Virus record (IMG/VR): IMGVR_UViG_3300025909_000005
Origin: a virus
Lineage: Duplodnaviria; Caudoviricetes
Direction: 5' to 3' (one strand)
DNA: 64,000 nt
The position numbers and the translations under genes are program-made. The notes below the pieces were generated by a model. That model was not told the DNA's origin. It did no database searches and saw nothing but the letters and a program-made list of their open reading frames with translations. Shown piece after piece: positions 5,460 through 56,095 of this stretch. Each line of letters starts with the position of its first letter. The stretch's first letter is position 1.

Positions 5460-6584
5460 ATGGCATCGAAAGTTCTGACCGTCTACATCGGTCGTTTCCA
5501 ACCACTTCACAACGGACATGTCCACGTTCTGACGAATGCGCTTCGCACGTCGGACCACACGCTGGTGCTCGTCGGCAGCTCGTTCCGTTCCCGCACGATC
5601 AAGAACCCCTTCACGTTCGACGAACGTAAGGAAGTGCTCATGGCCTGGCACGACGACTCGGAGCTCGACAAGAAGAGCCTGACCGTTCTGCCACTGCGTG
5701 ACCAGCCCTACTCAAACTCCAAGTGGATCGAGTCGGTGCAGAAGACGGTCCACAACTTCATGATCGAGAAGCATCTCGACCCCCGCACCACTGAAGTTCG
5801 CCTCACCGGTTCCGACCGTGACGAGTCGACCTGGTACCTGCAGGCCTTCCCGCAGTGGAAGCTGGCGCTCTGCGCTCCAGTTCCTGCCGGCCGCGACCTC
5901 TCAGCCACCAACCTCCGTCATGAGCTGTTCGGCGCCATGCTTGGCACGGCCATCAAGGACGACACCCCTCGCATCACGCAGTTCTTCATCGAGAAGTTCC
6001 GATTCGGCGAGGAGTTCGCGCTCCTCAAGGCCGAGTACGACTTCATCGAGAAGTACAAGAAGGCCTGGAAGGCAGCACCCTACGCACCCTACTTCCTGAC
6101 CGTCGACGGCGTCGTGATCCAATCCGGCCACGTGCTGGTCGTCCGCCGCGGCGCCCTCCCTGGCAAGGGCCTGCTCGCTCTGCCTGGTGGCTTCCTCGAT
6201 CAGAACGAGCGCCTCGCCGACGGCGTGGTTCGTGAACTCATCGAGGAAACGGGTCTGCGTCTGGCTGACGGCAAGAACGCCGAACGCATCACGAAGTCGA
6301 TGCTGCAGGGCGCCATCAAGGCGAAGGAAATCTTCGACGATCCGAATCGCTCGCTGCGTGGTCGCACCGTGACGACTGCCTACCTCATCCGCCTCGATGA
6401 CACCAAGCCGCTTCCGAAGGTGAAGGGCCAGTACGCACCGCTCCACGAGACCGGCGGCAAGCTCGTCGTCGAAACGGCTGACGCGTTCTGGATGCCGATC
6501 GCCGACGCGCTGCGCGACAGCTCGGTGTGGTTCGAGGACCACTACTACATTCTCGAGACGATGCTCGGCTTTGCGAAGGACTGA
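5460..6584 (+). CDS. nadM: bifunctional NMN adenylyltransferase / Nudix hydrolase (NadM-Nudix, NatV-like)
   Basis: GRFQPLHNGH (HxGH) motif; Nudix box PGGFLDQNERLADGVVRELIEETG. Confidence 0.93.
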   Translation: MASKVLTVYIGRFQPLHNGHVHVLTNALRTSDHTLVLVGSSFRSRTIKNPFTFDERKEVLMAWHDDSELDKKSLTVLPLRDQPYSNSKWIESVQKTVHNFMIEKHLDPRTTEVRLTGSDRDESTWYLQAFPQWKLALCAPVPAGRDLSATNLRHELFGAMLGTAIKDDTPRITQFFIEKFRFGEEFALLKAEYDFIEKYKKAWKAAPYAPYFLTVDGVVIQSGHVLVVRRGALPGKGLLALPGGFLDQNERLADGVVRELIEETGLRLADGKNAERITKSMLQGAIKAKEIFDDPNRSLRGRTVTTAYLIRLDDTKPLPKVKGQYAPLHETGGKLVVETADAFWMPIADALRDSSVWFEDHYYILETMLGFAKD

Positions 6585-10338: not shown

Positions 10339-11811
10339 ATGTCTGAAAAACTCGTTCCCTACACCCCGAAGCGCCTCACGTACAACCCGCTGATGCGCAC
10401 GGACAGCTACAAGTTCTCGCACGCCTTCTCGTACCCGAGCAACGCCACTGGCATGTTCTCGTACATCGAGGCCCGCACCGGCGGCCAGGACATCATCGTC
10501 CCTTTCGGCCTGCAGATCTGGCTGAACGAACACCTCTCCATTCCCATCACCGCAGAGAACATCGACGAGGCCGAGCTCTTCGCAGCTGCCCACGGTGAAC
10601 CCTTCAGCCGCGCGGCCTGGGAGAAGGTCCTCAACAAGTATCACGGCTACATGCCCGTGACCATCCGCGCCGTTCCCGAAGGCACGCCGGTTCCGAGCGG
10701 CAACGCCCTCGTGACCATCCAGTGCGAGGACGAAGAGCTCGTCGGCGAAGTCAACAGGATTCTCGTCTTCTGGATCGCCTCGTACCTCGAGACGCAGATG
10801 CTGCGCGCCTACTGGTACCCGACCACTATCGCCACCCTCGACCGTGCGACGAAGCTGCAGATCAAGCGCTTCTACGAAATCGCCGGTGCCGACCTCAACT
10901 TCCTGCCCTTCTCGCTGCACGACTTCGGCGGCCGCGGCGTTTCGTCCGGCGAGACCGCTGCCATCGGCGGTGCCGCCCACCTGCCGTCCTTCATGGGCTC
11001 GGACACGGTCGAAGGCGTTCGCTACGCCAACTTCTACTACGACGAGGCCATGTCGGCCTTCTCCGTCCGTGCGACGGAGCACTCGGTCGCCTGCTCGTTC
11101 GGCCTGTCGGATGAAGACGAGATCGCGTACATCGCCCACCAGCTGAAGGTCTTCGAAGGCAATGGCAACATCATCTCGATGGTCGGCGACTCGAAGAGCA
11201 TCAAGCGCTTCGCAAAGCACCTGTGCACGACCTTCCGTGACCAGATCATGGACCTCCATGAGCGCCTCGGCATGAAGATCGTCTGCCGCCCGGACTCCGG
11301 CGATCCGCTCGAGATCATTCCGATGCTGCTGAAGATGTTCGCTGACGCGTTCCCGACCACGAAGACCAGCGCCGGCTACATCAAGCTCTACCCCGGCATC
11401 GGCATCCTGCAGGGCGACGGCGTCGATCGCATGACGATCCTCACCATCCTCGGCAACATCATGGCCATGAACTTCTCGCCGGACAACATCGTCTTCGGTT
11501 CCGGTGGCGGCCTGCTGCAGAAGGTCAACCGCGACACGTTCAAGTTCGCGATGAAGGCCTCTGCGATCAAGGTCGACGGCAAGTGGAAGGGCATCGTCAA
11601 GGACCCGGAAACCGACCCCGGCAAGAAGTCGAAGGAAGGCATCCTGACCCTCGCGACGAACGGCCTCGGTGACTACCTCACGGTGCGCCTCGACAACTCC
11701 GAGAACCCGTACCCGCGCGGCTATCACGATGCCATGGTCACGGTCTACGACAAGGGCCAGTTCTACAACCATACGACGCTGGCTGAAGTCCGCGCCCGCT
11801 GCGCGGTCTAA
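10339..11811 (+). CDS. nadV: nicotinamide phosphoribosyltransferase (NAMPT/NadV)
   Basis: TDSYKFSH, LHDFGGRG, ATEHS, RPDSGDP, ILQGDG, GSGGGLLQKVNRDT, KDPETDPGKKSK. Confidence 0.93.
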   Translation: MSEKLVPYTPKRLTYNPLMRTDSYKFSHAFSYPSNATGMFSYIEARTGGQDIIVPFGLQIWLNEHLSIPITAENIDEAELFAAAHGEPFSRAAWEKVLNKYHGYMPVTIRAVPEGTPVPSGNALVTIQCEDEELVGEVNRILVFWIASYLETQMLRAYWYPTTIATLDRATKLQIKRFYEIAGADLNFLPFSLHDFGGRGVSSGETAAIGGAAHLPSFMGSDTVEGVRYANFYYDEAMSAFSVRATEHSVACSFGLSDEDEIAYIAHQLKVFEGNGNIISMVGDSKSIKRFAKHLCTTFRDQIMDLHERLGMKIVCRPDSGDPLEIIPMLLKMFADAFPTTKTSAGYIKLYPGIGILQGDGVDRMTILTILGNIMAMNFSPDNIVFGSGGGLLQKVNRDTFKFAMKASAIKVDGKWKGIVKDPETDPGKKSKEGILTLATNGLGDYLTVRLDNSENPYPRGYHDAMVTVYDKGQFYNHTTLAEVRARCAV

Positions 11812-15613: not shown

Positions 15614-15650
15614 ACCAGAGCACAGGTTGAGGCCTGTGCTATAATAGAAA

Positions 15651-16000
15651 CATACTGCAGCAATGCAGTTGTATTGTCGTAATTCGGCATGACTTGAAGG
15701 ATTTGAGACGCGGGTTCGATTCCCGCCGGCTCCACCACAAATCATCTTAGCAAGAACCTTACGCCAACGTTGTGGCAAGGAAAGCAGCAAGGGTGATTTG
15801 TCATGGGGCCGACCAGGCTATCGATCAGGTTACGGAGATGATTGACGCGACACGTCGTAGTGACGTTAAAAACTCGTCTAGTAAACGCAAACGACTCCAA
15901 CTACGCGATCGCCGCTTAATAACCGGCCCGCGCGCGGCATAAGCCACCGTGTAAAAGAATGAGCTAGGACGGACCCGAGGAGCAATCTTTGGGTCCGTCT
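15651..16000 (+). ncRNA. ssrA: two-piece (circularly permuted) tmRNA: acceptor piece ~15651-15737, intervening hairpin 15738-15804, coding piece from 15805; tag (A)ANDSNYAIAA
   Basis: T-arm and CGGCTCC-A-CCA lie upstream of GGGGCCG (7-bp acceptor with G3.U70); tag ORF GCA AAC GAC...GCC GCT TAA at 15887-15919; promoter TATAAT 15640; 3' hairpin 15968-15999. Confidence 0.92.
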
Positions 16001-16068
16001 GCCTTTCCAGGTCGATGGACCTGACTTTCGCTTCCATCGTAAATACGTTCAACTTCAAAGGAGTTGAG

Positions 16069-16666: not shown

Positions 16667-16738
16667 GCCTCGGTAGCTCAGTGGTAGAGCGGATGCCTCT
16701 AAAACGTCGGGTCGTGGGTTCGATTCCCACCCGGGGCA
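16667..16738 (+). tRNA. amber suppressor tRNA (anticodon CTA), no encoded CCA
   Basis: GCCTCGG/CCGGGGC acceptor, loop CTCTAAA, canonical D and T arms. Confidence 0.85.
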
Positions 16739-16753
16739 CAGATAAGGATGACC

Positions 16754-16960
16754 ATGGGACGTAGACTTTCCCTGCATGAAATGAATGCCATCAGGCATGA
16801 GGACGATGTTCGCAACTCGCAGATCAAGCGAGGCGAATGGAAGCCGAAGACAAACAACAACTATCACTGCGTGTGTGGTTGTGGTGCGTTCGCATGCGTG
16901 TTCGTGAGCTCAATTCCGCAGACGGTCCTGCCCATGGACGAACGATCAAATGTCTCTTAG
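16754..16960 (+). CDS. small Cys-containing protein between the two suppressor tRNAs; its TAG stop lies inside the second tRNA
   Basis: RBS TAAGG; HCVCGCG motif. Confidence 0.55.
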   Translation: MGRRLSLHEMNAIRHEDDVRNSQIKRGEWKPKTNNNYHCVCGCGAFACVFVSSIPQTVLPMDERSNVS

Positions 16961-17026
16961 CTCAATGGGTAGAGCGACGGTCTCTAAAACCGTATGTTCC
17001 GGGTTCGAGCCCCGGAGGGACGGCCA
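16951..17026 (+). tRNA. amber suppressor tRNA (anticodon CTA), G73, CCA encoded
   Basis: perfect ACGGT/ACCGT anticodon stem, loop CTCTAAA, TGTCTCT/AGGGACG acceptor. Confidence 0.9.
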
Positions 17027-17029
17027 AAC

Positions 17030-17275
17030 ATGTCTGCATTGAAGCGTATCGTTGCTGAGGCTGACGCCGACCCGAAAGGGTACGAGAAGGTGAATGACTT
17101 CTGGCAACAGTTCTTCGACTCGGTAAAGTTCGACAAGGTGAATGACACCGCCATGGTCGAATTTCGCGTCGAGCTGAACATGATCGACGAGGTGCGTGAG
17201 CTGCAGGAAGACCTGGAAAATTTCGAGCAGCTCGAGGCTCAGTTTCGACATCAAATCTCTGGAGACCAGAAGTGA
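17030..17275 (+). CDS. hypothetical protein, ADADPxGY N-terminal family
   Basis: MSALKRIVAEADADPKGYEK. Confidence 0.65.
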   Translation: MSALKRIVAEADADPKGYEKVNDFWQQFFDSVKFDKVNDTAMVEFRVELNMIDEVRELQEDLENFEQLEAQFRHQISGDQK

Positions 17276-17492: not shown

Positions 17493-17750
17493 ATGAACAA
17501 ACACATCCTCAAGCTGCTCGAAGAGATCAACAAGCGCAACACCACGCTGCGTGACATCTTCAAGATGAACGTCGAGGTCTACGACCTGACGAAGCCCCTG
17601 ACGAACGAGGAGATCGACAAGCTCCTCGTCCACTGCGAGGTCGAGCTCTCTCCCGAGGTCCTCACCTGCGACGGCGAACGCCGTGTTCCGAAGGGTCGTG
17701 TCGCCATGCTGACGAAGGCGCAGGAAGCCCTGCGTGCCGCGAAGCAATGA
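17493..17750 (+). CDS. hypothetical protein
   Basis: promoter TGTACT-N16-TATAAT directly upstream. Confidence 0.7.
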   Translation: MNKHILKLLEEINKRNTTLRDIFKMNVEVYDLTKPLTNEEIDKLLVHCEVELSPEVLTCDGERRVPKGRVAMLTKAQEALRAAKQ

Positions 17751-18070
17751 GCATCCTCGGCCGACTCGCTGCAGCCGCTGACGCGGACCCGGAAGGGTAC
17801 AAGAGGGCGACGCAGCCGAAGTTCGACTTCTGGAAGGCGGGCCGCGGGAAGACGAGCATTCGACTGCTTGAGGAGCTTGCTGGCGACTTCAACATTGACA
17901 CGCACATGTTTCAATTGGAACGATCACGCGTGATCACTGAGACGGCCCGAGGTATTCAACAGGACATGCTCCGCTACCTTGAGAATGATCTTGCGATCAC
18001 CAATGCTCTGATGCCGCGCCAGCGCGCGATCTTGAGCATTGACACCTCTGGTTCGATGGGGCAGCTGTGA
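17747..18070 (+). CDS. hypothetical protein, ADADPxGY family
   Basis: MSILGRLAAAADADPEGYKR. Confidence 0.65.
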   Translation: MSILGRLAAAADADPEGYKRATQPKFDFWKAGRGKTSIRLLEELAGDFNIDTHMFQLERSRVITETARGIQQDMLRYLENDLAITNALMPRQRAILSIDTSGSMGQL

Positions 18071-18381
18071 GCACACTCTCAAGGATCATCGCAGCTGCTG
18101 ATGCAGACCCTGAGGGGTACGAGTCCGCAACGACGCCGCTCTACAACCGGCTTCTTAAGGCGTTAGGCAAAGTGGAGATTCGTTCGATTTTAACGCCTCA
18201 GCTTTCAGATCAGCACATCGGTCGTGGCTGGCGTCAACTGGCAGATGTACTGCTGATTGCGCCACCGCGAACAGGCAAGTCTGCGATCCGCAACGAGCTG
18301 ATCGTGCTGCGCAGCAAAGAGCGACCTGCGTCTCCGAATGTTCATTTCGACCCACAGTGGTACAATAAATACATCGACTAA
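18067..18381 (+). CDS. hypothetical protein, ADADPxGY family
   Basis: MSTLSRIIAAADADPEGYES. Confidence 0.6.
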   Translation: MSTLSRIIAAADADPEGYESATTPLYNRLLKALGKVEIRSILTPQLSDQHIGRGWRQLADVLLIAPPRTGKSAIRNELIVLRSKERPASPNVHFDPQWYNKYID

Positions 18382-18533
18382 CAAGTTGTAGTTCCGATCA
18401 ACAACCGACGAGGCACCCGAAATGTAAGTCCGACCCTGAGTTTCATCACACAGGCTAACGATTTTGAGTTTCGAGTTTCATGGGAACCTTCTCCATGGTA
18501 AAAAGGTTCCCCAACTTCCCAAGGAAGACCATC

Positions 18534-18890
18534 ATGCAATCGTAGATCCGCGAAGACGCCAAGACCTATCTGTACACCATCTCTCGCCGCGACATCCCTC
18601 TCGCGCAACAAGCTGTGCAAGCCGGCCACGCCGCCCTTGAACACGCTTACCTCTACGGCCGTCCGGCCGACCATCACCCCTCCTACATTCACCTGACGAT
18701 TCGAGACAAGGAACGGCTCGAGAAGCAACGGCGTGCGCTCCAAGAAGCTGGCATTCCGACGGCCGAGTTCCACGAACCGTACAAGGACTGGGGTCTCACC
18801 GCCATTTCCTGCCTCCTCACCGAGGAACAACGTCACCACCTGAAGGGGCTCCAGCTGTGGCGCCTCCCCACCCAAGGAGAAGAAGCATGA
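18534..18890 (+). CDS. peptidyl-tRNA hydrolase type 2-like protein with in-frame TAG at codon 4 (readthrough required)
   Basis: RBS AAGGA 8 nt before ATG CAA TCG TAG; frame continues YLYTISRRDIPLAQQAVQAGHAALE...FHEP...LTAI. Confidence 0.75.
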
Positions 18891-19291
18891 ACTACACCAT
18901 CATTGTCCATGAAGAAGCCCGCCATGGTTACGACCGCTGCGGCGACGGCTGGAACGAACCTGGCACCTTCGAGGTGTTCTGCACCTCTGATCAAACCGAG
19001 TTCGTGAAGAAGTGGGCTGAGTTCGACCTGAAGCAGCCATCCGGTTGCTGGGACGACTTCCAGATCCTGTACGATGGCGTGCCGACGGAATTCGATGACG
19101 CGCACTACGAGCTGGAGCGACTCAAGGACATCGAGTACGCCGCGCTGAAGAAGCAGGCCGAGGCAGACAAGCTGGAGGCGAAGCGTCGCGCCGAGGAAGA
19201 AGCCAGGGTGAAGGCGGCTCGTGCCGTCGAAGCTCAACGACAAGCAGACCTCGCGCAGCTCGAGGCCCTCAAAAAGAAGCTGGGAGTCTAA
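18887..19291 (+). CDS. hypothetical protein with coiled-coil C-terminus
   Basis: RBS AAGGAG. Confidence 0.7.
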   Translation: MNYTIIVHEEARHGYDRCGDGWNEPGTFEVFCTSDQTEFVKKWAEFDLKQPSGCWDDFQILYDGVPTEFDDAHYELERLKDIEYAALKKQAEADKLEAKRRAEEEARVKAARAVEAQRQADLAQLEALKKKLGV

Positions 19292-19292
19292 C

Positions 19293-19817
19293 ATGAAGAT
19301 TACGTACAAGGAAAATCCGCTGGCAACCGTCATCGAGCTCGATGACCATGAGAAGGAGGTCATGCGCCTGAAGCTCAAGCTGGAGATCTACGAGGACCGT
19401 GCCTTCGCCGCCCACTGGGCCCTCGCAAACATTGGCAACGAGCTGCGTGGTCAGATTCGAACGAAGGACATGGCCATCGAGCAGGCCATGAAGGAACTTG
19501 ACCCTGACTACTTGCTTGCTGAGGATGGTGAGGGTATCGAGAAGCGGACTGACGATCTACTGACGTGGTACCTTCAGGAACTCCAGTCATGGCACGACGG
19601 TGACTGCACGGCCTTCCCCGCGTCTTGCTGCAAGTGCCATGCCGAGGACATGCTTGGTCTCAATACGATCAAGGGAATTGGCAAGCACCAAGGGTACGCA
19701 CTGAGCCAGTACTTCGCCCGTGGTCGCACGCTCAATGAGCTCATCGAGGACGTGTCCCTGAAGCAGGAGCTTCGTGACTGGCTCAGTGAACATCGCGAGC
19801 GGCTATCTAGCCACTAA
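19293..19817 (+). CDS. hypothetical protein with DCTAFPASCCKC motif
   Basis: RBS GGGAG. Confidence 0.7.
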   Translation: MKITYKENPLATVIELDDHEKEVMRLKLKLEIYEDRAFAAHWALANIGNELRGQIRTKDMAIEQAMKELDPDYLLAEDGEGIEKRTDDLLTWYLQELQSWHDGDCTAFPASCCKCHAEDMLGLNTIKGIGKHQGYALSQYFARGRTLNELIEDVSLKQELRDWLSEHRERLSSH

Positions 19818-19851
19818 TGCTATTACCCGCTCGCTCACTAAGGAAAGTAAC

Positions 19852-20421
19852 ATGACGTAGGTTTTCTCCCCCAAGCTGCAGGCTCTTCGTGAGAAGATGG
19901 CCGCCTGCAACCAGACCCAAGGCCAGACCATTCTCCAGCACGGCGAGTCCGTGGCCGAGTGGTACAAGGACCTGATTGGTGCACGCACACGTGAGTGGCG
20001 CCTGCCTGACTGGTTCGATCCCGCCCTCTTCGAGCTCTGCCCAGATGTGGGGACGATGGAGCGCTACCACATCTACCATGATTGTGGTAAGCCGTACTGC
20101 CGTACGGTTGACGAAGAAGGTCGTCAACACTTCCCTGACCATGCCCGTATCAGCGCCTCCATCTGGCGCGTGACCGGTGGCGACGCGGCTGTTGCTCGTC
20201 TCATCGAACACGACATGGACATGCACACCCTCAAGCCGGCAGATGCCGACACCTACCTGCACCTGGACATTGCTCCAGCTCTGCTTCTCACCGCCCTTGC
20301 TGAACTGCACTCCAACGCCGACATGTTCGGCGGGATCGAGAGCACGTCCTTCAAGATCAAGTTCAAGAACCTCAACAAGCTCGGCAACCGCCTCATCAAC
20401 CGCATCAAGGAGATCGCATAA
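19852..20421 (+). CDS. HD-domain phosphohydrolase with in-frame TAG at codon 3
   Basis: RBS TAAGGA 7 nt before ATG ACG TAG; in frame with ATG 19897; HG..V, YHDCGKP, HFPDHA, HDMDMH. Confidence 0.75.
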
Positions 20422-20663
20422 TGGACCGCACTGAATACCTGGCTGAAGTCGCCACCTGGATCAACAACTACAACGAACTCTCGGAGAAGATCCGCAAGGC
20501 TCGTACTGCCTACAAGCAGGCCCAACGAGAAGGCGAGTCGGTCTACAAGACCCTCGGTGAGTACGAACGCCTGAAGCACGAAGCCACGGCTGAGCTCAGC
20601 AACCGAGAGGAGCTCAAGGAGGAGGCGCGCCTGGCCTGGGAAGCTCGACGCCAACCTGCATAA
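20421..20663 (+). CDS. hypothetical coiled-coil protein
   Basis: 80 aa. Confidence 0.65.
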   Translation: MDRTEYLAEVATWINNYNELSEKIRKARTAYKQAQREGESVYKTLGEYERLKHEATAELSNREELKEEARLAWEARRQPA

Positions 20664-20729
20664 GCCAGCCACACCAGGTCGATCTGGAGTTACAATAGAT
20701 ATAAGAGCCCACACTCATAAAAGGCTCTC

Positions 20730-37010: not shown

Positions 37011-37523
37011 ATGAAGAAGACTCTTGTAGCAGTCGCCGTAGCGGCATTGTCGCTCGGCGCGTTTGCGCAAACCGCACAGACGCAAACCATCCAAGTGCAG
37101 CACCACGAGGAACACCACGATCGCGATCGTCATGATGATCGTCGTGGTGACCGTGATGGCGATCATCGCGGTTGGCACCGTGACAACCACGGCAACTGGG
37201 TTCGTGACCTCGCAATCGGCGCCGGCATCGGCCTGTTGATCAACGGCATCGAACACAACAACGAAGCAGCTCAGCAAGATCAATGGCGTGACCGCGAAGA
37301 GTGGCGCCACCGCTACCATCGTTGGGATCGTGGCTACTACCTCGACGACAACGATCAGCCATACATCGAGCCAACTGTCACCGTGTCCTACGAGTGGGAC
37401 CGCTACGGTCGCAAAATCCGTGTAACGCGTACCCAAACTTGTGTAGAATCTACACTGGATGCGTATGACAACGCCGTGTGCACCCGCTGGGAAATCACGA
37501 CTGAACGTCGTTACGTTCGCTAA
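37011..37523 (+). CDS. secreted His/Arg/Asp-rich protein with glycine-zipper-like segment
   Basis: signal peptide, HHDRDRHDDRRGD, LAIGAGIGLLING. Confidence 0.75.
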   Translation: MKKTLVAVAVAALSLGAFAQTAQTQTIQVQHHEEHHDRDRHDDRRGDRDGDHRGWHRDNHGNWVRDLAIGAGIGLLINGIEHNNEAAQQDQWRDREEWRHRYHRWDRGYYLDDNDQPYIEPTVTVSYEWDRYGRKIRVTRTQTCVESTLDAYDNAVCTRWEITTERRYVR

Positions 37524-37582
37524 ATCTACGGAGGGGCTTTCGCCTCTCCTAGAAGTTCTCACTAACCATGGAGATGAATGAG

Positions 37583-37891
37583 ATGATCAAGACCCTTATT
37601 GTAGCTGCGCTTGCAGCAATGTCCCTCGGCGCAGTCGCTGCCGAAACCGTCGTCACAAAGACGGTGGACACCCACCATGAAATGCGTGATCAAGGTCGCC
37701 ATGAAGGCCACCCATACCGCCATGACATGGGCCACCACTACGGCTGGCGCCATCACCGTCACCACCGCCACGTAGTGGTCGTGCGTGACACGGAAGTGCG
37801 TCACATGCACCGTCACCACCGCCATCACATGATGCGCGACGGCAGCGTTGATCGCCATGTCGTTGTAACGAAGGACGTGCACTCGCACTAA
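37583..37891 (+). CDS. secreted His-rich protein
   Basis: signal peptide, about 25% His. Confidence 0.7.
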   Translation: MIKTLIVAALAAMSLGAVAAETVVTKTVDTHHEMRDQGRHEGHPYRHDMGHHYGWRHHRHHRHVVVVRDTEVRHMHRHHRHHMMRDGSVDRHVVVTKDVHSH

Positions 37892-41765: not shown

Positions 41766-41979
41766 AGCTGAGCGTCTGTGGGCAGGTTTCATTCAGCTCT
41801 TGAATGAGCGGCGGCCCCTCGGCAAGCACGATGACTTCATCCCGCACAAGTCGTTCATCGGCCCGATCGACGGCTACAAGAAGATCTTCCTCGAAGCTGC
41901 TCGTAACATGGACAAGGAAGAAAGTGGGATACAGCACAACATTTCTGGGGCTGGCGAAGTTCCGCAAACCCCTGACTGA
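41755..41979 (+). CDS. hypothetical protein
   Basis: RBS GGAG. Confidence 0.5.
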   Translation: MTSEAERLWAGFIQLLNERRPLGKHDDFIPHKSFIGPIDGYKKIFLEAARNMDKEESGIQHNISGAGEVPQTPD

Positions 41980-42286
41980 CGAGCAGCTCGGTATCATCCA
42001 GAGCTACATCGACGACGAGAGCGCAGACCTCGAGCTGGCTGGTCGAGATGAGGACGGCAACTGGATCGACTACGATGCACTGAAGTGGAACGGAGCCGAG
42101 AAGACCTACGACATGGTCAGGTGGCTCTTCGAAATTGGCGAGCTCCTGCAGGAGAACGATCCTGAGCAGGGCTTTGCTGATGGCTACCTCGAGGCGTACG
42201 GCGAAAGCGCGGGCGACCTGTGGTGTGTCAAGTTCAAGGATGGCCTCGCCTACGAGGTCGGCGCAAAGTTGGTACCAGACGAATAG
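41924..42286 (+). CDS. hypothetical phage protein (MGYST.F family); ends in TAG
   Basis: GTG start after AAGGA; LKWNGAEKTY..GESAGDLW. Confidence 0.65.
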   Translation: MGYSTTFLGLAKFRKPLTDEQLGIIQSYIDDESADLELAGRDEDGNWIDYDALKWNGAEKTYDMVRWLFEIGELLQENDPEQGFADGYLEAYGESAGDLWCVKFKDGLAYEVGAKLVPDE

Positions 42287-42295
42287 GAGAGAAGC

Positions 42296-42403
42296 ATGAA
42301 GCAAGAAATGGCAGCAATGAATGTCGCGAGCATCGTCGCGATGGTCCTGTCGGCAGGCCTGATCGTTGGCCTGATCTGGGCCGCGGTCCACTTCTATGGT
42401 TGA
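42296..42403 (+). CDS. 35-aa membrane peptide
   Basis: RBS TAGGAG, one TM helix. Confidence 0.55.
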   Translation: MKQEMAAMNVASIVAMVLSAGLIVGLIWAAVHFYG

Positions 42404-54794: not shown

Positions 54795-54992
54795 ATGAAT
54801 CACGCAGAGCTGCAAGCCATCGTCAACGAGAACATGGACAACGCGTTGGACAACGCGCCCGAGTTCATTAAGACGGCGTCAAACCTCGCCATCGCCGAGG
54901 ACATGCTGGAGTACTGTGCAGACTTCGAGTTCCTCGACCTATCGCCTGACGACCTGGTCCCCTTCATCGAAACATGGTGGAACAAGGTATGA
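54795..54992 (+). CDS. acidic hypothetical protein
   Basis: near-leaderless after TATAAT. Confidence 0.6.
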   Translation: MNHAELQAIVNENMDNALDNAPEFIKTASNLAIAEDMLEYCADFEFLDLSPDDLVPFIETWWNKV

Positions 54993-56095
54993 AGATCTAC
55001 ATCGTCGGTGGCGCAGTTCGCGACGCCGCAATGGGCCTGAAAGCTAAGGACGAGGACTACGTCGTCGTTGGCGCGACGCCTGAAGAGATGCTGGCCAAGG
55101 GCTTCAAGCAGGTCGGCGCAGACTTCCCAGTTTTCCTGCACCCGCAGAGCGGTGATGAATGGGCTCTGGCACGGACGGAACGCAAGTCAGGTTCCGGCTA
55201 CCTGGGCTTCGACGTCGAAACTGACGGCGTGACGCTGGAAGAAGACCTGTCGCGTCGCGACCTGACGATGAACGCAATGGCCATCGCCATTGGCTCCACA
55301 GAGATCATCGACCCATTCGGCGGTCTGAACGACATCAAGAACAGGGTGCTGCGCCACATCGGCCCGGCCTTTGCTGAGGACCCGCTGCGCGTCATCCGCC
55401 TGGCTCGCTTCTTTGCTCGCTACGAAGACTTCGTCGTCGCTGAGGAAACTGCCGAGCTGTGCAAGCAGGTGGTCAACAGCGGTGAGCTGGATGCCCTGCC
55501 GTTCGAGCGCTTCTGGGCCGAACTGGAGAAGGTCTTCACTGAGAAGCGGCCTGATCGCTTCTTCCAGGCGCTGCACGAAATGGGTGCGCTGAAGAAGGTG
55601 CGGTTCTTCCAACGCGTCTTTGGCGACACGCCGATCCAAACGCTGATGGGCGTTGCTGAAAAGCTGAAGCTGTCTCAAGAACAGCGCGTTCGTCAGTTCG
55701 TCGCCCTCGTCGGCACGCAGAAGGAACTGAAGAACGTTGCGGCGTCGACCGAGATCATGGACGTGCACCGCAACCTGCGCTTCGCGCGTTCGATCAAGAA
55801 GGTCGTCAACCGAGAAAGCGTGCATGCCTTCATCAAGCAGGCAGGCGGCTTTCAACGCGGTGAACACCACCTGACTCAGCAGTCGCTGGATGCACTGGAC
55901 GCGATCTCGTTGTCTCATCAACTGGGTCTGGATGACTTCTCTTCGCTGGCAGAGGGCTGGTTCATGATGGCCTGGATGAACGCCACGCGTGTAGGACAAG
56001 CCGACTTCCCTGAGCTCTCGGGCAAGGAGCTGGGCGAGGCCATCAAGAACAAGCGCATGGACCTGATCATGAGCTCGATCAACATGTCAACCTGA
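54989..56095 (+). CDS. cca: tRNA nucleotidyltransferase (class II CCA-adding enzyme, short form without HD domain)
   Basis: IVGGAVRD, DEDYVV, ALARTERK, EEDLSRRDLTMNAMA, DPFGG, EDPLRVIRLARF. Confidence 0.93.
   Translation: MKIYIVGGAVRDAAMGLKAKDEDYVVVGATPEEMLAKGFKQVGADFPVFLHPQSGDEWALARTERKSGSGYLGFDVETDGVTLEEDLSRRDLTMNAMAIAIGSTEIIDPFGGLNDIKNRVLRHIGPAFAEDPLRVIRLARFFARYEDFVVAEETAELCKQVVNSGELDALPFERFWAELEKVFTEKRPDRFFQALHEMGALKKVRFFQRVFGDTPIQTLMGVAEKLKLSQEQRVRQFVALVGTQKELKNVAASTEIMDVHRNLRFARSIKKVVNRESVHAFIKQAGGFQRGEHHLTQQSLDALDAISLSHQLGLDDFSSLAEGWFMMAWMNATRVGQADFPELSGKELGEAIKNKRMDLIMSSINMST

What the first reader, a model, noticed from the sequence alone, without database searches (positions are those of the whole stretch)
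19839..20421. HD-domain gene with TAG at codon 3 behind a strong RBS
TAAGGA-N7-ATG ACG TAG GTT TTC TCC CCC AAG CTG CAG GCT CTT CGT GAG AAG ATG is in frame with the called ORF at 19897, which has only a weak RBS. The YHDCGKP...HFPDHA motif resembles HD domains used in RNA end healing. The phage CCA enzyme in this window lacks such a domain, so this protein could supply it in trans (inference).
Basis: partly seen in the sequence, partly recalled or inferred. Interest (0 to 1): 0.8.

Follow-up and report, generated by a model that had tools for sequence, protein, structure and literature searches.

The report
Amber-gated HD phosphohydrolase gene in phage
A giant phage keeps a TAG stop as the third codon of a conserved HD-type (tRNA-enzyme-like) gene and carries its own TAG-reading tRNAs 3 kb away; dozens of distant phages do the same, so the protein is probably made only when that tRNA overrides the stop.

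Summary
It is not chance. Of 72 non-redundant relatives, 49 begin ATG, 0-10 codons, TAG, and two begin ATG-x-TGA. These include the isolated phages XacN1 and RsoM2USA. The 12 codons after the TAG encode a conserved helix that AlphaFold2 places in the fold. Some relatives have no canonical start after the TAG. The window carries two tRNA-CUA genes (16667, 16951). TAG ends about 1 of 87 genes. Only one other gene in the window has the same early TAG, a PTH2-like gene at 18534. The two TGA-type contigs carry tRNA-UCA.

Best reading (about 0.7): translation starts at 19852, the phage suppressor tRNA reads the TAG, and a 189-residue HD protein results. Nothing here is experimental.

The fold is closest to the HD domain of CC/CCA-adding tRNA nucleotidyltransferases. 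The recurrent fusion partner is PTH2, not the CCA enzyme.

This scan has already noted the same lock-and-key design on this genome (PTH2 gene) and on at least 35 other genomes. I found no description of it in the papers searched. The XacN1 paper states that the targets of its suppressor tRNAs could not be identified.

The parts
19839..19844 (+). Shine-Dalgarno TAAGGA, 7 nt before the gate ATG
   Evidence: In relatives with GC >= 0.45, 12 of 13 gate ATGs have an SD and 0 of 13 M13 ATGs do.
19852..19857 (+). Proposed true start ATG plus codon 2 (ACG)
   Evidence: An in-frame ATG lies 1-11 codons before the TAG in 49 of 72 non-redundant relatives.
19858..19860 (+). In-frame TAG (codon 3), followed by G at +4
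   Evidence: The base after the gate TAG in relatives is A 34, G 11, C 4, T 0. At ordinary stops T is about 30%.
19861..19896 (+). Twelve codons (VFSPKLQALREK) encoding most of N-terminal helix alpha-1
   Evidence: Conserved in longer homologs and in the six-frame reading of relatives. Modelled as helix 4-15 at pLDDT about 94. Codon score is +5.6 bits over 12 codons.
19897..20421 (+). Rest of the HD-domain gene as called by ORF finders (174 aa plus TAA)
   Evidence: Invariant H27, H73-D74, H90, H94, D118, D120. pLDDT 97.
16667..16739 (+). tRNA with CUA anticodon no. 1 (G1-C72, A73, no encoded CCA)
   Evidence: ARAGORN; sequence.
16951..17026 (+). tRNA with CUA anticodon no. 2 (U1.G72, G2-C71, G10, G73, encoded CCA)
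   Evidence: ARAGORN; sequence.
18534..18890 (+). PTH2-like gene with the same design (AAGGAAG-N6-ATG CAA TCG TAG ATC); the first canonical start lies 24 codons after the TAG
   Evidence: Of 23 sequences aligned as family members (one, L024, proved unrelated), 15 hit PF01981. PTH2 is fused to the HD domain in other phages.
15645..16010 (+). Phage tmRNA just upstream of the suppressor tRNAs; the same order recurs in relatives
54974..56095 (+). Phage CCA-type nucleotidyltransferase without an HD domain (context only)
   Evidence: Pfam PolyA_pol head plus RNA-binding domain, 373 aa.

Best explanation
The HD gene starts at ATG 19852 behind the TAAGGA ribosome-binding site. Its third codon, TAG, is decoded by one or both phage-encoded tRNA-CUA species (16667, 16951). 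The product is then a 189-residue protein whose first helix lies between the TAG and the ATG that ORF finders pick.

Without a working suppressor tRNA, ribosomes loaded at the strong SD release a dipeptide, and little or no complete enzyme is made. The TAG therefore acts as a one-codon translational gate. It couples synthesis of this enzyme, and of the neighbouring PTH2-like enzyme, to the presence and charging of the phage's own suppressor tRNA.

Shown by sequence and comparison: the anatomy, its conservation, the match between stop codon and anticodon, and the fold.

Inferred: that read-through happens at all, and which residue is inserted. Gln or Lys is most likely. tRNA no. 2 has GlnRS-type elements known from E. 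coli (weak 1-72 pair, G73, G2-C71, G10, U35). Homologs carry Q, E or K at columns where others carry TAG.

The enzyme is a metal-dependent phosphohydrolase of the HDIG type. It most resembles the HD domain of CC/CCA-adding enzymes. Because it is repeatedly fused to PTH2, I infer that it acts on tRNA 3' ends together with PTH2 (confidence about 0.4).
For: 1. Anatomy: strong SD, ATG, ACG, TAG, in frame.
2. Conservation: 49 of 72 non-redundant relatives (GC 23-61%) have ATG-x(0-10)-TAG, and one more has the ATG 13 codons before the TAG. The TAG sits at varying distances from the conserved Met (5 to about 130 codons), so the feature is maintained rather than one inherited site.
3. The isolated phages XacN1 (ORF364) and RsoM2USA (gene 91) have it.
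4. The residues after the TAG are conserved and fold as helix 4-15. Ungated relatives also start 10-14 residues before that Met.
5. L033 and L034 have no ATG, GTG or TTG in the 120 codons after the TAG, and L067 has none before the domain.
6. tRNA-CUA is present in the window, within 6 kb of the HD gene in about 30 loci, and in all large TAG-gated genomes examined: G003, XacN1, G005, G011, plus a weak candidate in G014. The RsoM2USA paper also reports one.
7. The two loci with ATG-x-TGA lie on contigs that carry tRNA-UCA. No tRNA-CUA was seen there.
8. The +4 base after the gate TAG is A or G in 45 of 49 and never T. Ordinary stops have about 30% T. By established E. coli work, a purine at +4 favours amber suppression.
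9. TAG is nearly unused as a terminator: 1 of 87 genes in the window, 8 of 374 in G003, 4 of 402 in XacN1.
10. Only two genes in the window carry the design.
Against: - There are no expression, Ribo-seq or proteomic data.
- In this window an ATG (19897) lies 12 codons after the TAG, so reinitiation cannot be excluded for this gene on its own.
- The TGA/UCA covariation rests on two related phages, probably one evolutionary event. In both, the TGA is also the stop of an in-frame upstream ORF.
- One complete gated genome (G014) has only a sub-threshold tRNA-CUA candidate (25 bits).
- Five fragmentary gated contigs showed no suppressor.
- Several relatives carry tRNA-CUA next to an ungated HD gene (L013, L017, L019, L022, L026 and the Rak2-like group). 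The gate is therefore not obligatory.
- The isotype of the suppressor tRNAs could not be assigned by similarity.
Confidence: 0.72

Rival explanations
1. Mini-ORF plus reinitiation. Ribosomes start at 19852, terminate at the TAG after two codons, and some reinitiate at ATG 19897. The real protein is then the 174-aa form, and the ATG-ACG-TAG is a leader minigene like the lambda bar minigenes. It would tune expression, or perhaps titrate tRNA or Pth.
For: ATG 19897 exists 36 nt after the TAG, and a Met at that position is nearly invariant in the family. The SD-ATG-x-stop shape is that of a minigene. The gated genes include a peptidyl-tRNA hydrolase homolog, which is the enzyme that clears minigene products (established knowledge).
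Against: - The Met is also conserved in homologs that clearly start further upstream, so it is a structural residue.
- The 12 intervening codons are conserved as protein and modelled as part of the fold.
- L033, L034 and L067 have no canonical start after the TAG. The PTH2-like gene has none for 24 codons, which cover its first strand.
- There is no SD at 19897 or its equivalents (0 of 13).
- The gate ATG is always in the frame of the gene, which reinitiation does not require.
- Reinitiation explains neither the match between stop codon and anticodon nor the absence of T at +4.
Confidence: 0.12
2. Non-canonical initiation at the codon directly after the TAG (GTT here; ATT, ATA or CTT in relatives). 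On this reading the ATG-x-TAG is irrelevant or acts as a coupling device.
For: The codon after the TAG is ATT in 21, GTT in 7 and ATA in 4 of 49 relatives. ATT and ATA are rare but known bacterial start codons.
Against: - GTT and CTT are not known start codons. AAC, AAA, AAT, GGC, GCT, ACC and ACG also occur at this position.
- The SD is placed for the ATG, which lies up to 11 codons upstream of the TAG. In the window the SD would be 16 nt from the GTT.
- This reading does not explain linkage to, or covariation with, suppressor tRNAs.
Confidence: 0.04
3. The phage uses a reassigned code (TAG as a sense codon genome-wide, code 15), and this TAG is one of many.
For: tRNA-CUA genes are present and TAG is almost absent as a terminator.
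Against: - Reading TAG as sense merges almost no ORFs. Only two in-frame TAGs in 64 kb have coding sequence on both sides of the stop and an in-frame start.
- Whole genomes G003 and XacN1 show no excess of such sites over TAA and TGA controls.
- Code 11 gives normal coding density in the loci.
Confidence: 0.02
4. A broken gene or an assembly error.
For: A stop at codon 3 would normally mean a pseudogene or a wrong start call.
Against: The same design appears in about 50 independent assemblies and in two sequenced isolates. The protein is under strong conservation (29 invariant columns, pLDDT 97).
Confidence: 0.01

Closest known systems
Stop-codon-recoded phages with phage-encoded suppressor tRNAs (TAG to Gln 'code 15', TGA to Trp 'code 4'; bioRxiv 10.1101/2021.08.26.457843)
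   Same: A phage-encoded tRNA reads a stop codon inside phage genes. The reassigned stop is depleted as a terminator. Regulation of translation timing has been proposed.
   Different: In recoded phages, hundreds of in-frame stops are spread through late genes and coding density collapses under code 11. Here the genome reads normally in code 11. Only two genes carry one stop each, always within the first dozen codons, and both are tRNA-related enzymes.
Suppressor tRNAs of jumbo phages XacN1 and RsoM2USA (PMC5852040, PMC8504454)
   Same: These are the same phage group and the same tRNA-CUA genes. Both genomes contain a homolog of this HD gene.
   Different: The XacN1 authors read through the 18 annotated amber stops and reported that they could not identify target genes. 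The RsoM2USA paper only counted TAG triplets. The in-frame TAG lies upstream of the annotated starts of XacN1 ORF364 and RsoM2USA_91, so that approach would miss it.
prfB (RF2) autoregulation through an early in-frame UGA (established knowledge)
   Same: An early in-frame stop in a translation-factor gene makes its synthesis depend on how that stop is handled by the translation apparatus.
   Different: RF2 uses a +1 frameshift and senses release-factor level. Here the frame is unchanged and the sensed component would be a suppressor tRNA.
Synthetic amber-suppressor gates and feed-forward loops (PMC7969014)
   Same: A TAG placed early in a gene plus a separately expressed suppressor tRNA gives an AND gate and low leak.
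   Different: Those are engineered circuits. This would be a natural counterpart.
HD domain of class II CC/CCA-adding tRNA nucleotidyltransferases (Aquifex aeolicus O67911, PDB 3WFO-3WFS; the E. coli CCA enzyme HD domain has 2',3'-cyclic phosphodiesterase and phosphatase activity, established knowledge)
   Same: This is the best fold and profile match (E 3e-4 and 7e-5, TM 0.65-0.66; profile E 1.5e-4). The HDxGKP and downstream His motifs align.
   Different: The phage protein stands alone at 189 aa. Identity is about 20%. It has a distinctive C-terminal MFGG-x-S-x-SFKIK motif. Fused relatives are joined to PTH2, not to a nucleotidyltransferase head.

Membership tests
HD metal-dependent phosphohydrolase superfamily (PF01966; TIGR00277 HDIG) | Conserved H...HD...H...D metal ligands | tested here: met
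   H27, H73-D74, H90, H94, D118 and D120 are invariant in 34 sequences.
HD metal-dependent phosphohydrolase superfamily (PF01966; TIGR00277 HDIG) | Score above the curated family cut-off | tested here: not met
   PF01966 scores 18.8 bits against a cut-off of 22. TIGR00277 scores 21.4 against 27.6. One relative (P0056) has a precomputed PF01966 hit.
HD metal-dependent phosphohydrolase superfamily (PF01966; TIGR00277 HDIG) | All-alpha HD fold | tested here: met
   The model has pLDDT 97. The top matches are HD domains: CC-adding enzyme, PhnZ, PgpH, YfbR and GlnD.
HD metal-dependent phosphohydrolase superfamily (PF01966; TIGR00277 HDIG) | Phosphohydrolase activity | not testable with these tools
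   Needs enzymology.
HD domain of CC/CCA-adding tRNA nucleotidyltransferases | Covalently joined to a PolyA_pol (PF01743) head domain | tested here: not met
   The protein stands alone. None of the longer relatives found carries PF01743. The window's CCA enzyme is a separate gene 35 kb away.
HD domain of CC/CCA-adding tRNA nucleotidyltransferases | Closest structural and sequence relative | tested here: met
   3WFR and related entries give E 3e-4, TMq 0.65. O67911 residues 254-449 give E 7e-5. The profile against the PDB gives E 1.5e-4.
Stop-codon-recoded phage (code 15) | Many genes with in-frame TAG and poor coding density under code 11 | tested here: not met
Stop-codon-recoded phage (code 15) | Phage-encoded tRNA-CUA and depletion of TAG as a terminator | tested here: met
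Gene gated by a cognate suppressor tRNA (programmed read-through) | The in-frame stop is conserved among diverged homologs, with protein conservation downstream and an in-frame SD-ATG upstream | tested here: met
Gene gated by a cognate suppressor tRNA (programmed read-through) | A suppressor tRNA with matching anticodon in the same genome | tested here: met
   The window, G003, XacN1, G005 and G011 carry tRNA-CUA, and G014 has a weak candidate. The RsoM2USA paper reports one. The TGA-type contigs G001 and G002 carry tRNA-UCA. Fragmentary contigs were uninformative.
Gene gated by a cognate suppressor tRNA (programmed read-through) | Read-through product observed | not testable with these tools
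   Needs proteomics or ribosome profiling.
Lambda bar-type minigene | SD-ATG-one or two codons-stop | tested here: met
   One search shows this shape. Unlike bar, however, the frame continues into a conserved gene.
Lambda bar-type minigene | Toxicity through peptidyl-tRNA drop-off in Pth-limited cells | not testable with these tools
   Needs genetics.

The most novel reading that the evidence does not exclude
The early stop codons in the HD and PTH2 genes form a conserved natural sensor of suppressor-tRNA activity. The phage would make its tRNA-end repair and recycling enzymes only once its own stop-reading tRNAs are matured and charged. This could work as a time-delay or feedback circuit that manages the consequences of stop-codon override: read-through, stalled ribosomes and peptidyl-tRNA, with the adjacent phage tmRNA as a third part. 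Alternatively it could counter host attacks on tRNA 3' ends. If so, it would give the long-unexplained suppressor tRNAs of standard-code jumbo phages such as XacN1 a defined target set.
Probability: 0.3. Interest if true: 0.9.

Novelty: new variant of a known kind. Interest (0 to 1): 0.78.

Why it matters
Many jumbo phages that use the standard code carry amber or opal suppressor tRNAs. Their purpose has been an open question: the XacN1 paper looked for targets and found none. A conserved stop at the very start of two tRNA-related enzyme genes gives those tRNAs concrete, testable targets. XacN1 and RsoM2USA are cultured phages in which the idea can be tested directly.

The finding also shows a systematic annotation error. 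Gene callers cut off the first helix of the HD protein, and the first strand of PTH2, in hundreds of database entries.

If confirmed, it would be a natural version of the amber-suppressor gates used in synthetic biology. It might also represent a step between standard-code and recoded phages.

Tried and rejected
- Whole genome of the window: none is held.
- Nucleotide search of isolated phages: only a 74-nt weak match to Xoo-sp13.
- Assigning the suppressor tRNAs to an isotype by similarity to 254 typed phage tRNAs: no consistent nearest type.
- Length-only gene calling for stop usage in the loci: too noisy in GC-rich DNA. I replaced it with a codon-usage model.
- Genome-wide search for further gated genes in G003 and XacN1: nothing convincing beyond the HD(-PTH2) gene, and background was equal to the TGA control. 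The scan also missed the known G003 HD gate at its score threshold, so it is not exhaustive.
- Suppressor search in five fragmentary gated contigs: none found, which is uninformative at 18-58% completeness.
- RNA structure around the gate: z = +0.81, nothing.
- Promoter and terminator scan of 18300-20700: nothing on the + strand.
- Complex prediction of HD with the PTH2-like protein: no verdict (score 0.01, controls not run).
- PTH2 gene of the two TGA-type phages: ungated, so no second covariation.
- Pyrrolysine: ARAGORN's label 'tRNA-Pyl' only reflects the CUA anticodon. Both tRNAs are ordinary cloverleaves, so I did not pursue it.

Full report
**The observation**

TAAGGA lies at 19839-19844, followed by seven bases and ATG at 19852. 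ACG and TAG (19858-19860) follow. Twelve sense codons then lead in frame to ATG 19897, the start that an ORF finder picks for the 174-aa ORF 19897..20421. The upstream gene ends at 19817 in another frame. The 12 codons have the same codon-usage score per codon as the rest of the gene. The product gives a sub-threshold Pfam HD hit.

**What the window is**

The window comes from a large phage with 57% GC. It holds 28 tRNA genes and a tmRNA. It also carries NAD-salvage genes, a helicase and a CCA-type nucleotidyltransferase. No close relative exists among isolated phages.

Two of the tRNAs have the anticodon CUA (16667-16739 and 16951-17026). They lie just after the tmRNA and 3 kb upstream of the finding.

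With a codon-usage gene model, TAG ends about 1 of 87 genes in the window. Reading TAG as sense merges almost nothing. This phage therefore uses the standard code but avoids TAG.

**Homologs**

The protein has more than 1200 relatives in metagenomes, many on contigs of 100-500 kb. Most are called at 174-179 residues. The longer ones carry an N-terminal helix that matches the window's 12 'untranslated' codons. The window reads SPKLQALREKM; P0064 reads TPQLEILREKM and P0027 reads NDLQILREKM.

The DNA of two close relatives showed why most are called short:
- L001 reads GGAG-N5-ATG, four codons, TAG, then the helix.
- L002 reads TAAGGA-ATG, five codons, TAG, inside the helix. Its TAG sits where the window has Q.

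**Eighty IMG/VR loci**

I fetched 80 loci and read each in the frame of the gene. They reduce to 72 non-redundant loci spanning GC 23% to 61%.
- 49 begin ATG, 0-10 codons, TAG. One more has the ATG 13 codons before the TAG.
- Two begin ATG-x-TGA, and none begin with a TAA of this kind.
- The ATG-to-TAG distance is most often two codons.
- The TAG lies at many different distances from the conserved Met. The feature is being maintained rather than inherited as one site.
- In GC-rich loci, 12 of 13 gate ATGs have an SD. None of the 13 internal Met codons does.
- The base after the TAG is A in 34, G in 11, C in 4 and never T. About 30% of ordinary stops in these phages are followed by T. In E. coli a purine at that position favours suppression over termination (established knowledge).
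- Forms of the protein fused to a PTH2 domain put the ATG-x-TAG at the start of the whole fusion. In L033 and L034 there is no ATG, GTG or TTG in the 120 codons that follow. L067 has none before the domain. In those genes nothing but read-through, or a non-canonical start, can make the protein.

**Isolated phages**

XacN1 ORF364 is preceded by AGAGGA-N8-ATG AAG TAG. RsoM2USA gene 91 is preceded by AGAGGA-N7-ATG AAA TCG TAG.

The XacN1 paper reports two CUA suppressor tRNAs. It states that reading through the annotated amber stops revealed no targets (PMC5852040). The RsoM2USA paper leaves the question open (PMC8504454). These in-frame TAGs lie upstream of annotated starts, so that approach would miss them.

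**Link to suppressor tRNAs**

- A tRNA-CUA gene lies within 6 kb of the HD gene in about 30 loci. The order is often tmRNA, tRNA-CUA, PTH2, HD.
- Among large gated genomes, G003 has two, XacN1 two per terminal repeat, G005 one and G011 two.
- G014 is complete and gated. It has only a sub-threshold candidate 4 kb upstream of the gene (25 bits).
- Five fragmentary contigs showed none, which says little.
- The two loci with ATG-x-TGA lie on contigs with tRNA-UCA and no detected tRNA-CUA. These two phages are related to each other, and their TGA also ends an in-frame upstream ORF. I count this as one supporting event, not two.
- TAG is a rare terminator genome-wide in G003 (8 of 374) and XacN1 (4 of 402).

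**Specificity**

In the window only two TAGs have an in-frame ATG just upstream and coding sequence downstream. One is this gene. The other is 18543, in a PTH2-like gene that reads AAGGAAG-N6-ATG CAA TCG TAG ATC. The first canonical start of that gene is 24 codons further on. That stretch is conserved across the family right up to the TAG and should form the first strand of the fold. I aligned 23 candidate sequences of that family; one (L024) proved unrelated. Fifteen of the 23 hit PF01981.

The same two domains are fused in other phages, in both orders. In XacN1 the only convincing gated gene in the whole genome is the HD-PTH2 fusion.

**The protein**

AlphaFold2 with 34 sequences gives pLDDT 97. 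Residues 4-15, which are the codons after the TAG, form the first helix.

The best structural matches are the HD domain of the Aquifex aeolicus CC-adding tRNA nucleotidyltransferase (PDB 3WFO-3WFS, E 3e-4, TM 0.65; AFDB O67911 residues 254-449, E 7e-5). A profile search of PDB sequences finds the same protein (E 1.5e-4) with HDxGKP aligned. The metal ligands are invariant.

The window's own CCA enzyme (54974-56095) has no HD domain. However, no relative is fused to a nucleotidyltransferase head, whereas many are fused to PTH2. A complex prediction of HD with PTH2 gave no verdict.

**Mechanism**

I conclude that the gene most likely starts at 19852 and needs the phage tRNA-CUA to pass codon 3.

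An early position has three plausible advantages (inference):
- Failure costs only a dipeptide.
- The residue inserted does not matter structurally.
- From minigene work in E. coli, release factors act poorly on very short nascent chains, which would favour the suppressor.

The residue is probably Gln or Lys. tRNA no. 2 has U1.G72, G2-C71, G10, G73 and U35, which are GlnRS identity elements in E. coli. In phages with two suppressors, one has A73 and one has G73. Homologs carry Q, E or K where others carry TAG.

The purpose of the gate is not shown. The module of tmRNA, suppressor tRNAs, PTH2 and HD suggests that the enzymes deal with tRNA ends or with by-products of stop-codon override.

**Rivals**

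- Reinitiation at 19897 cannot be excluded for this gene alone. It fails for relatives without a downstream start. It also does not explain the constant frame, the SD placement, the +4 bias or the codon-anticodon match.
- Initiation at the codon after the TAG fits ATT and ATA but not GTT, CTT, AAC, GGC and the others seen.
- Genome-wide recoding and pseudogenisation are excluded and by conservation.

**Prior notes**

This scan has already recorded the same design on this genome, for the PTH2 gene and for the module as a whole. It has also recorded it on at least 35 other genomes. One later check there stressed that nothing is experimental, and I agree. In the paper library I found recoded phages and engineered amber gates, but no description of this gene-specific gate.

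Noticed in passing
window 41804-42403: This is the only gene in the window that ends in TAG (42284). Thirty-eight further in-frame sense codons with coding-like codon usage follow (score +15 bits). With amber suppressors present, it may yield a C-terminally extended form.
   Followed up: no
window 17030-17272, 17747-18070, 18067-18381: Three paralogous small ORFs lie between the suppressor tRNAs and the PTH2-like gene. They share an N-terminal motif (..AADADPEGY..). None has a Pfam hit.
   Followed up: partly
L063 4190-4738: Three tRNA-like elements share the same acceptor and T arms (AGUCAGG...CCUGAC) but have 25-72 nt insertions, or an odd arm, where the anticodon arm should be. They lie just upstream of a gated PTH2 gene in a complete 373-kb phage genome that lacks a clear tRNA-CUA.
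   Followed up: partly
window 15645-16010; L006, L010-L014, L016; XacN1 37201-37621: A phage-encoded tmRNA (ARAGORN marks it with an asterisk; tag ANDSNYAIAA in the window) sits next to the suppressor tRNAs in many relatives. The order tmRNA, tRNA-CUA, PTH2, HD is conserved.
   Followed up: partly
L085 3431-4558 (RsoM2USA genes 92 and 91); also L040, L044, L048, L067: In about ten relatives the gate stop is also the stop of a long in-frame upstream ORF. Read-through would then also make a fusion of the upstream protein with the HD protein.
   Followed up: partly
L013, L017, L019, L022, L026, L069-L081: These relatives have a tRNA-CUA next to an HD gene that has an ordinary start with no early stop. 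The linkage of the HD gene to suppressor tRNAs is therefore wider than the gate itself.
   Followed up: partly
window 5460-6584 and 10339-11811: NAD-salvage genes (a cytidylyltransferase-like domain plus NUDIX, and NAMPT/NAPRTase), as described for other jumbo phages.
   Followed up: no
P0126: A 479-aa protein labelled Symbiodinium microadriaticum carries this phage-type HD domain fused to sulfotransferase domains. It sits on a 619-kb contig and may be contamination or a transfer.
   Followed up: no
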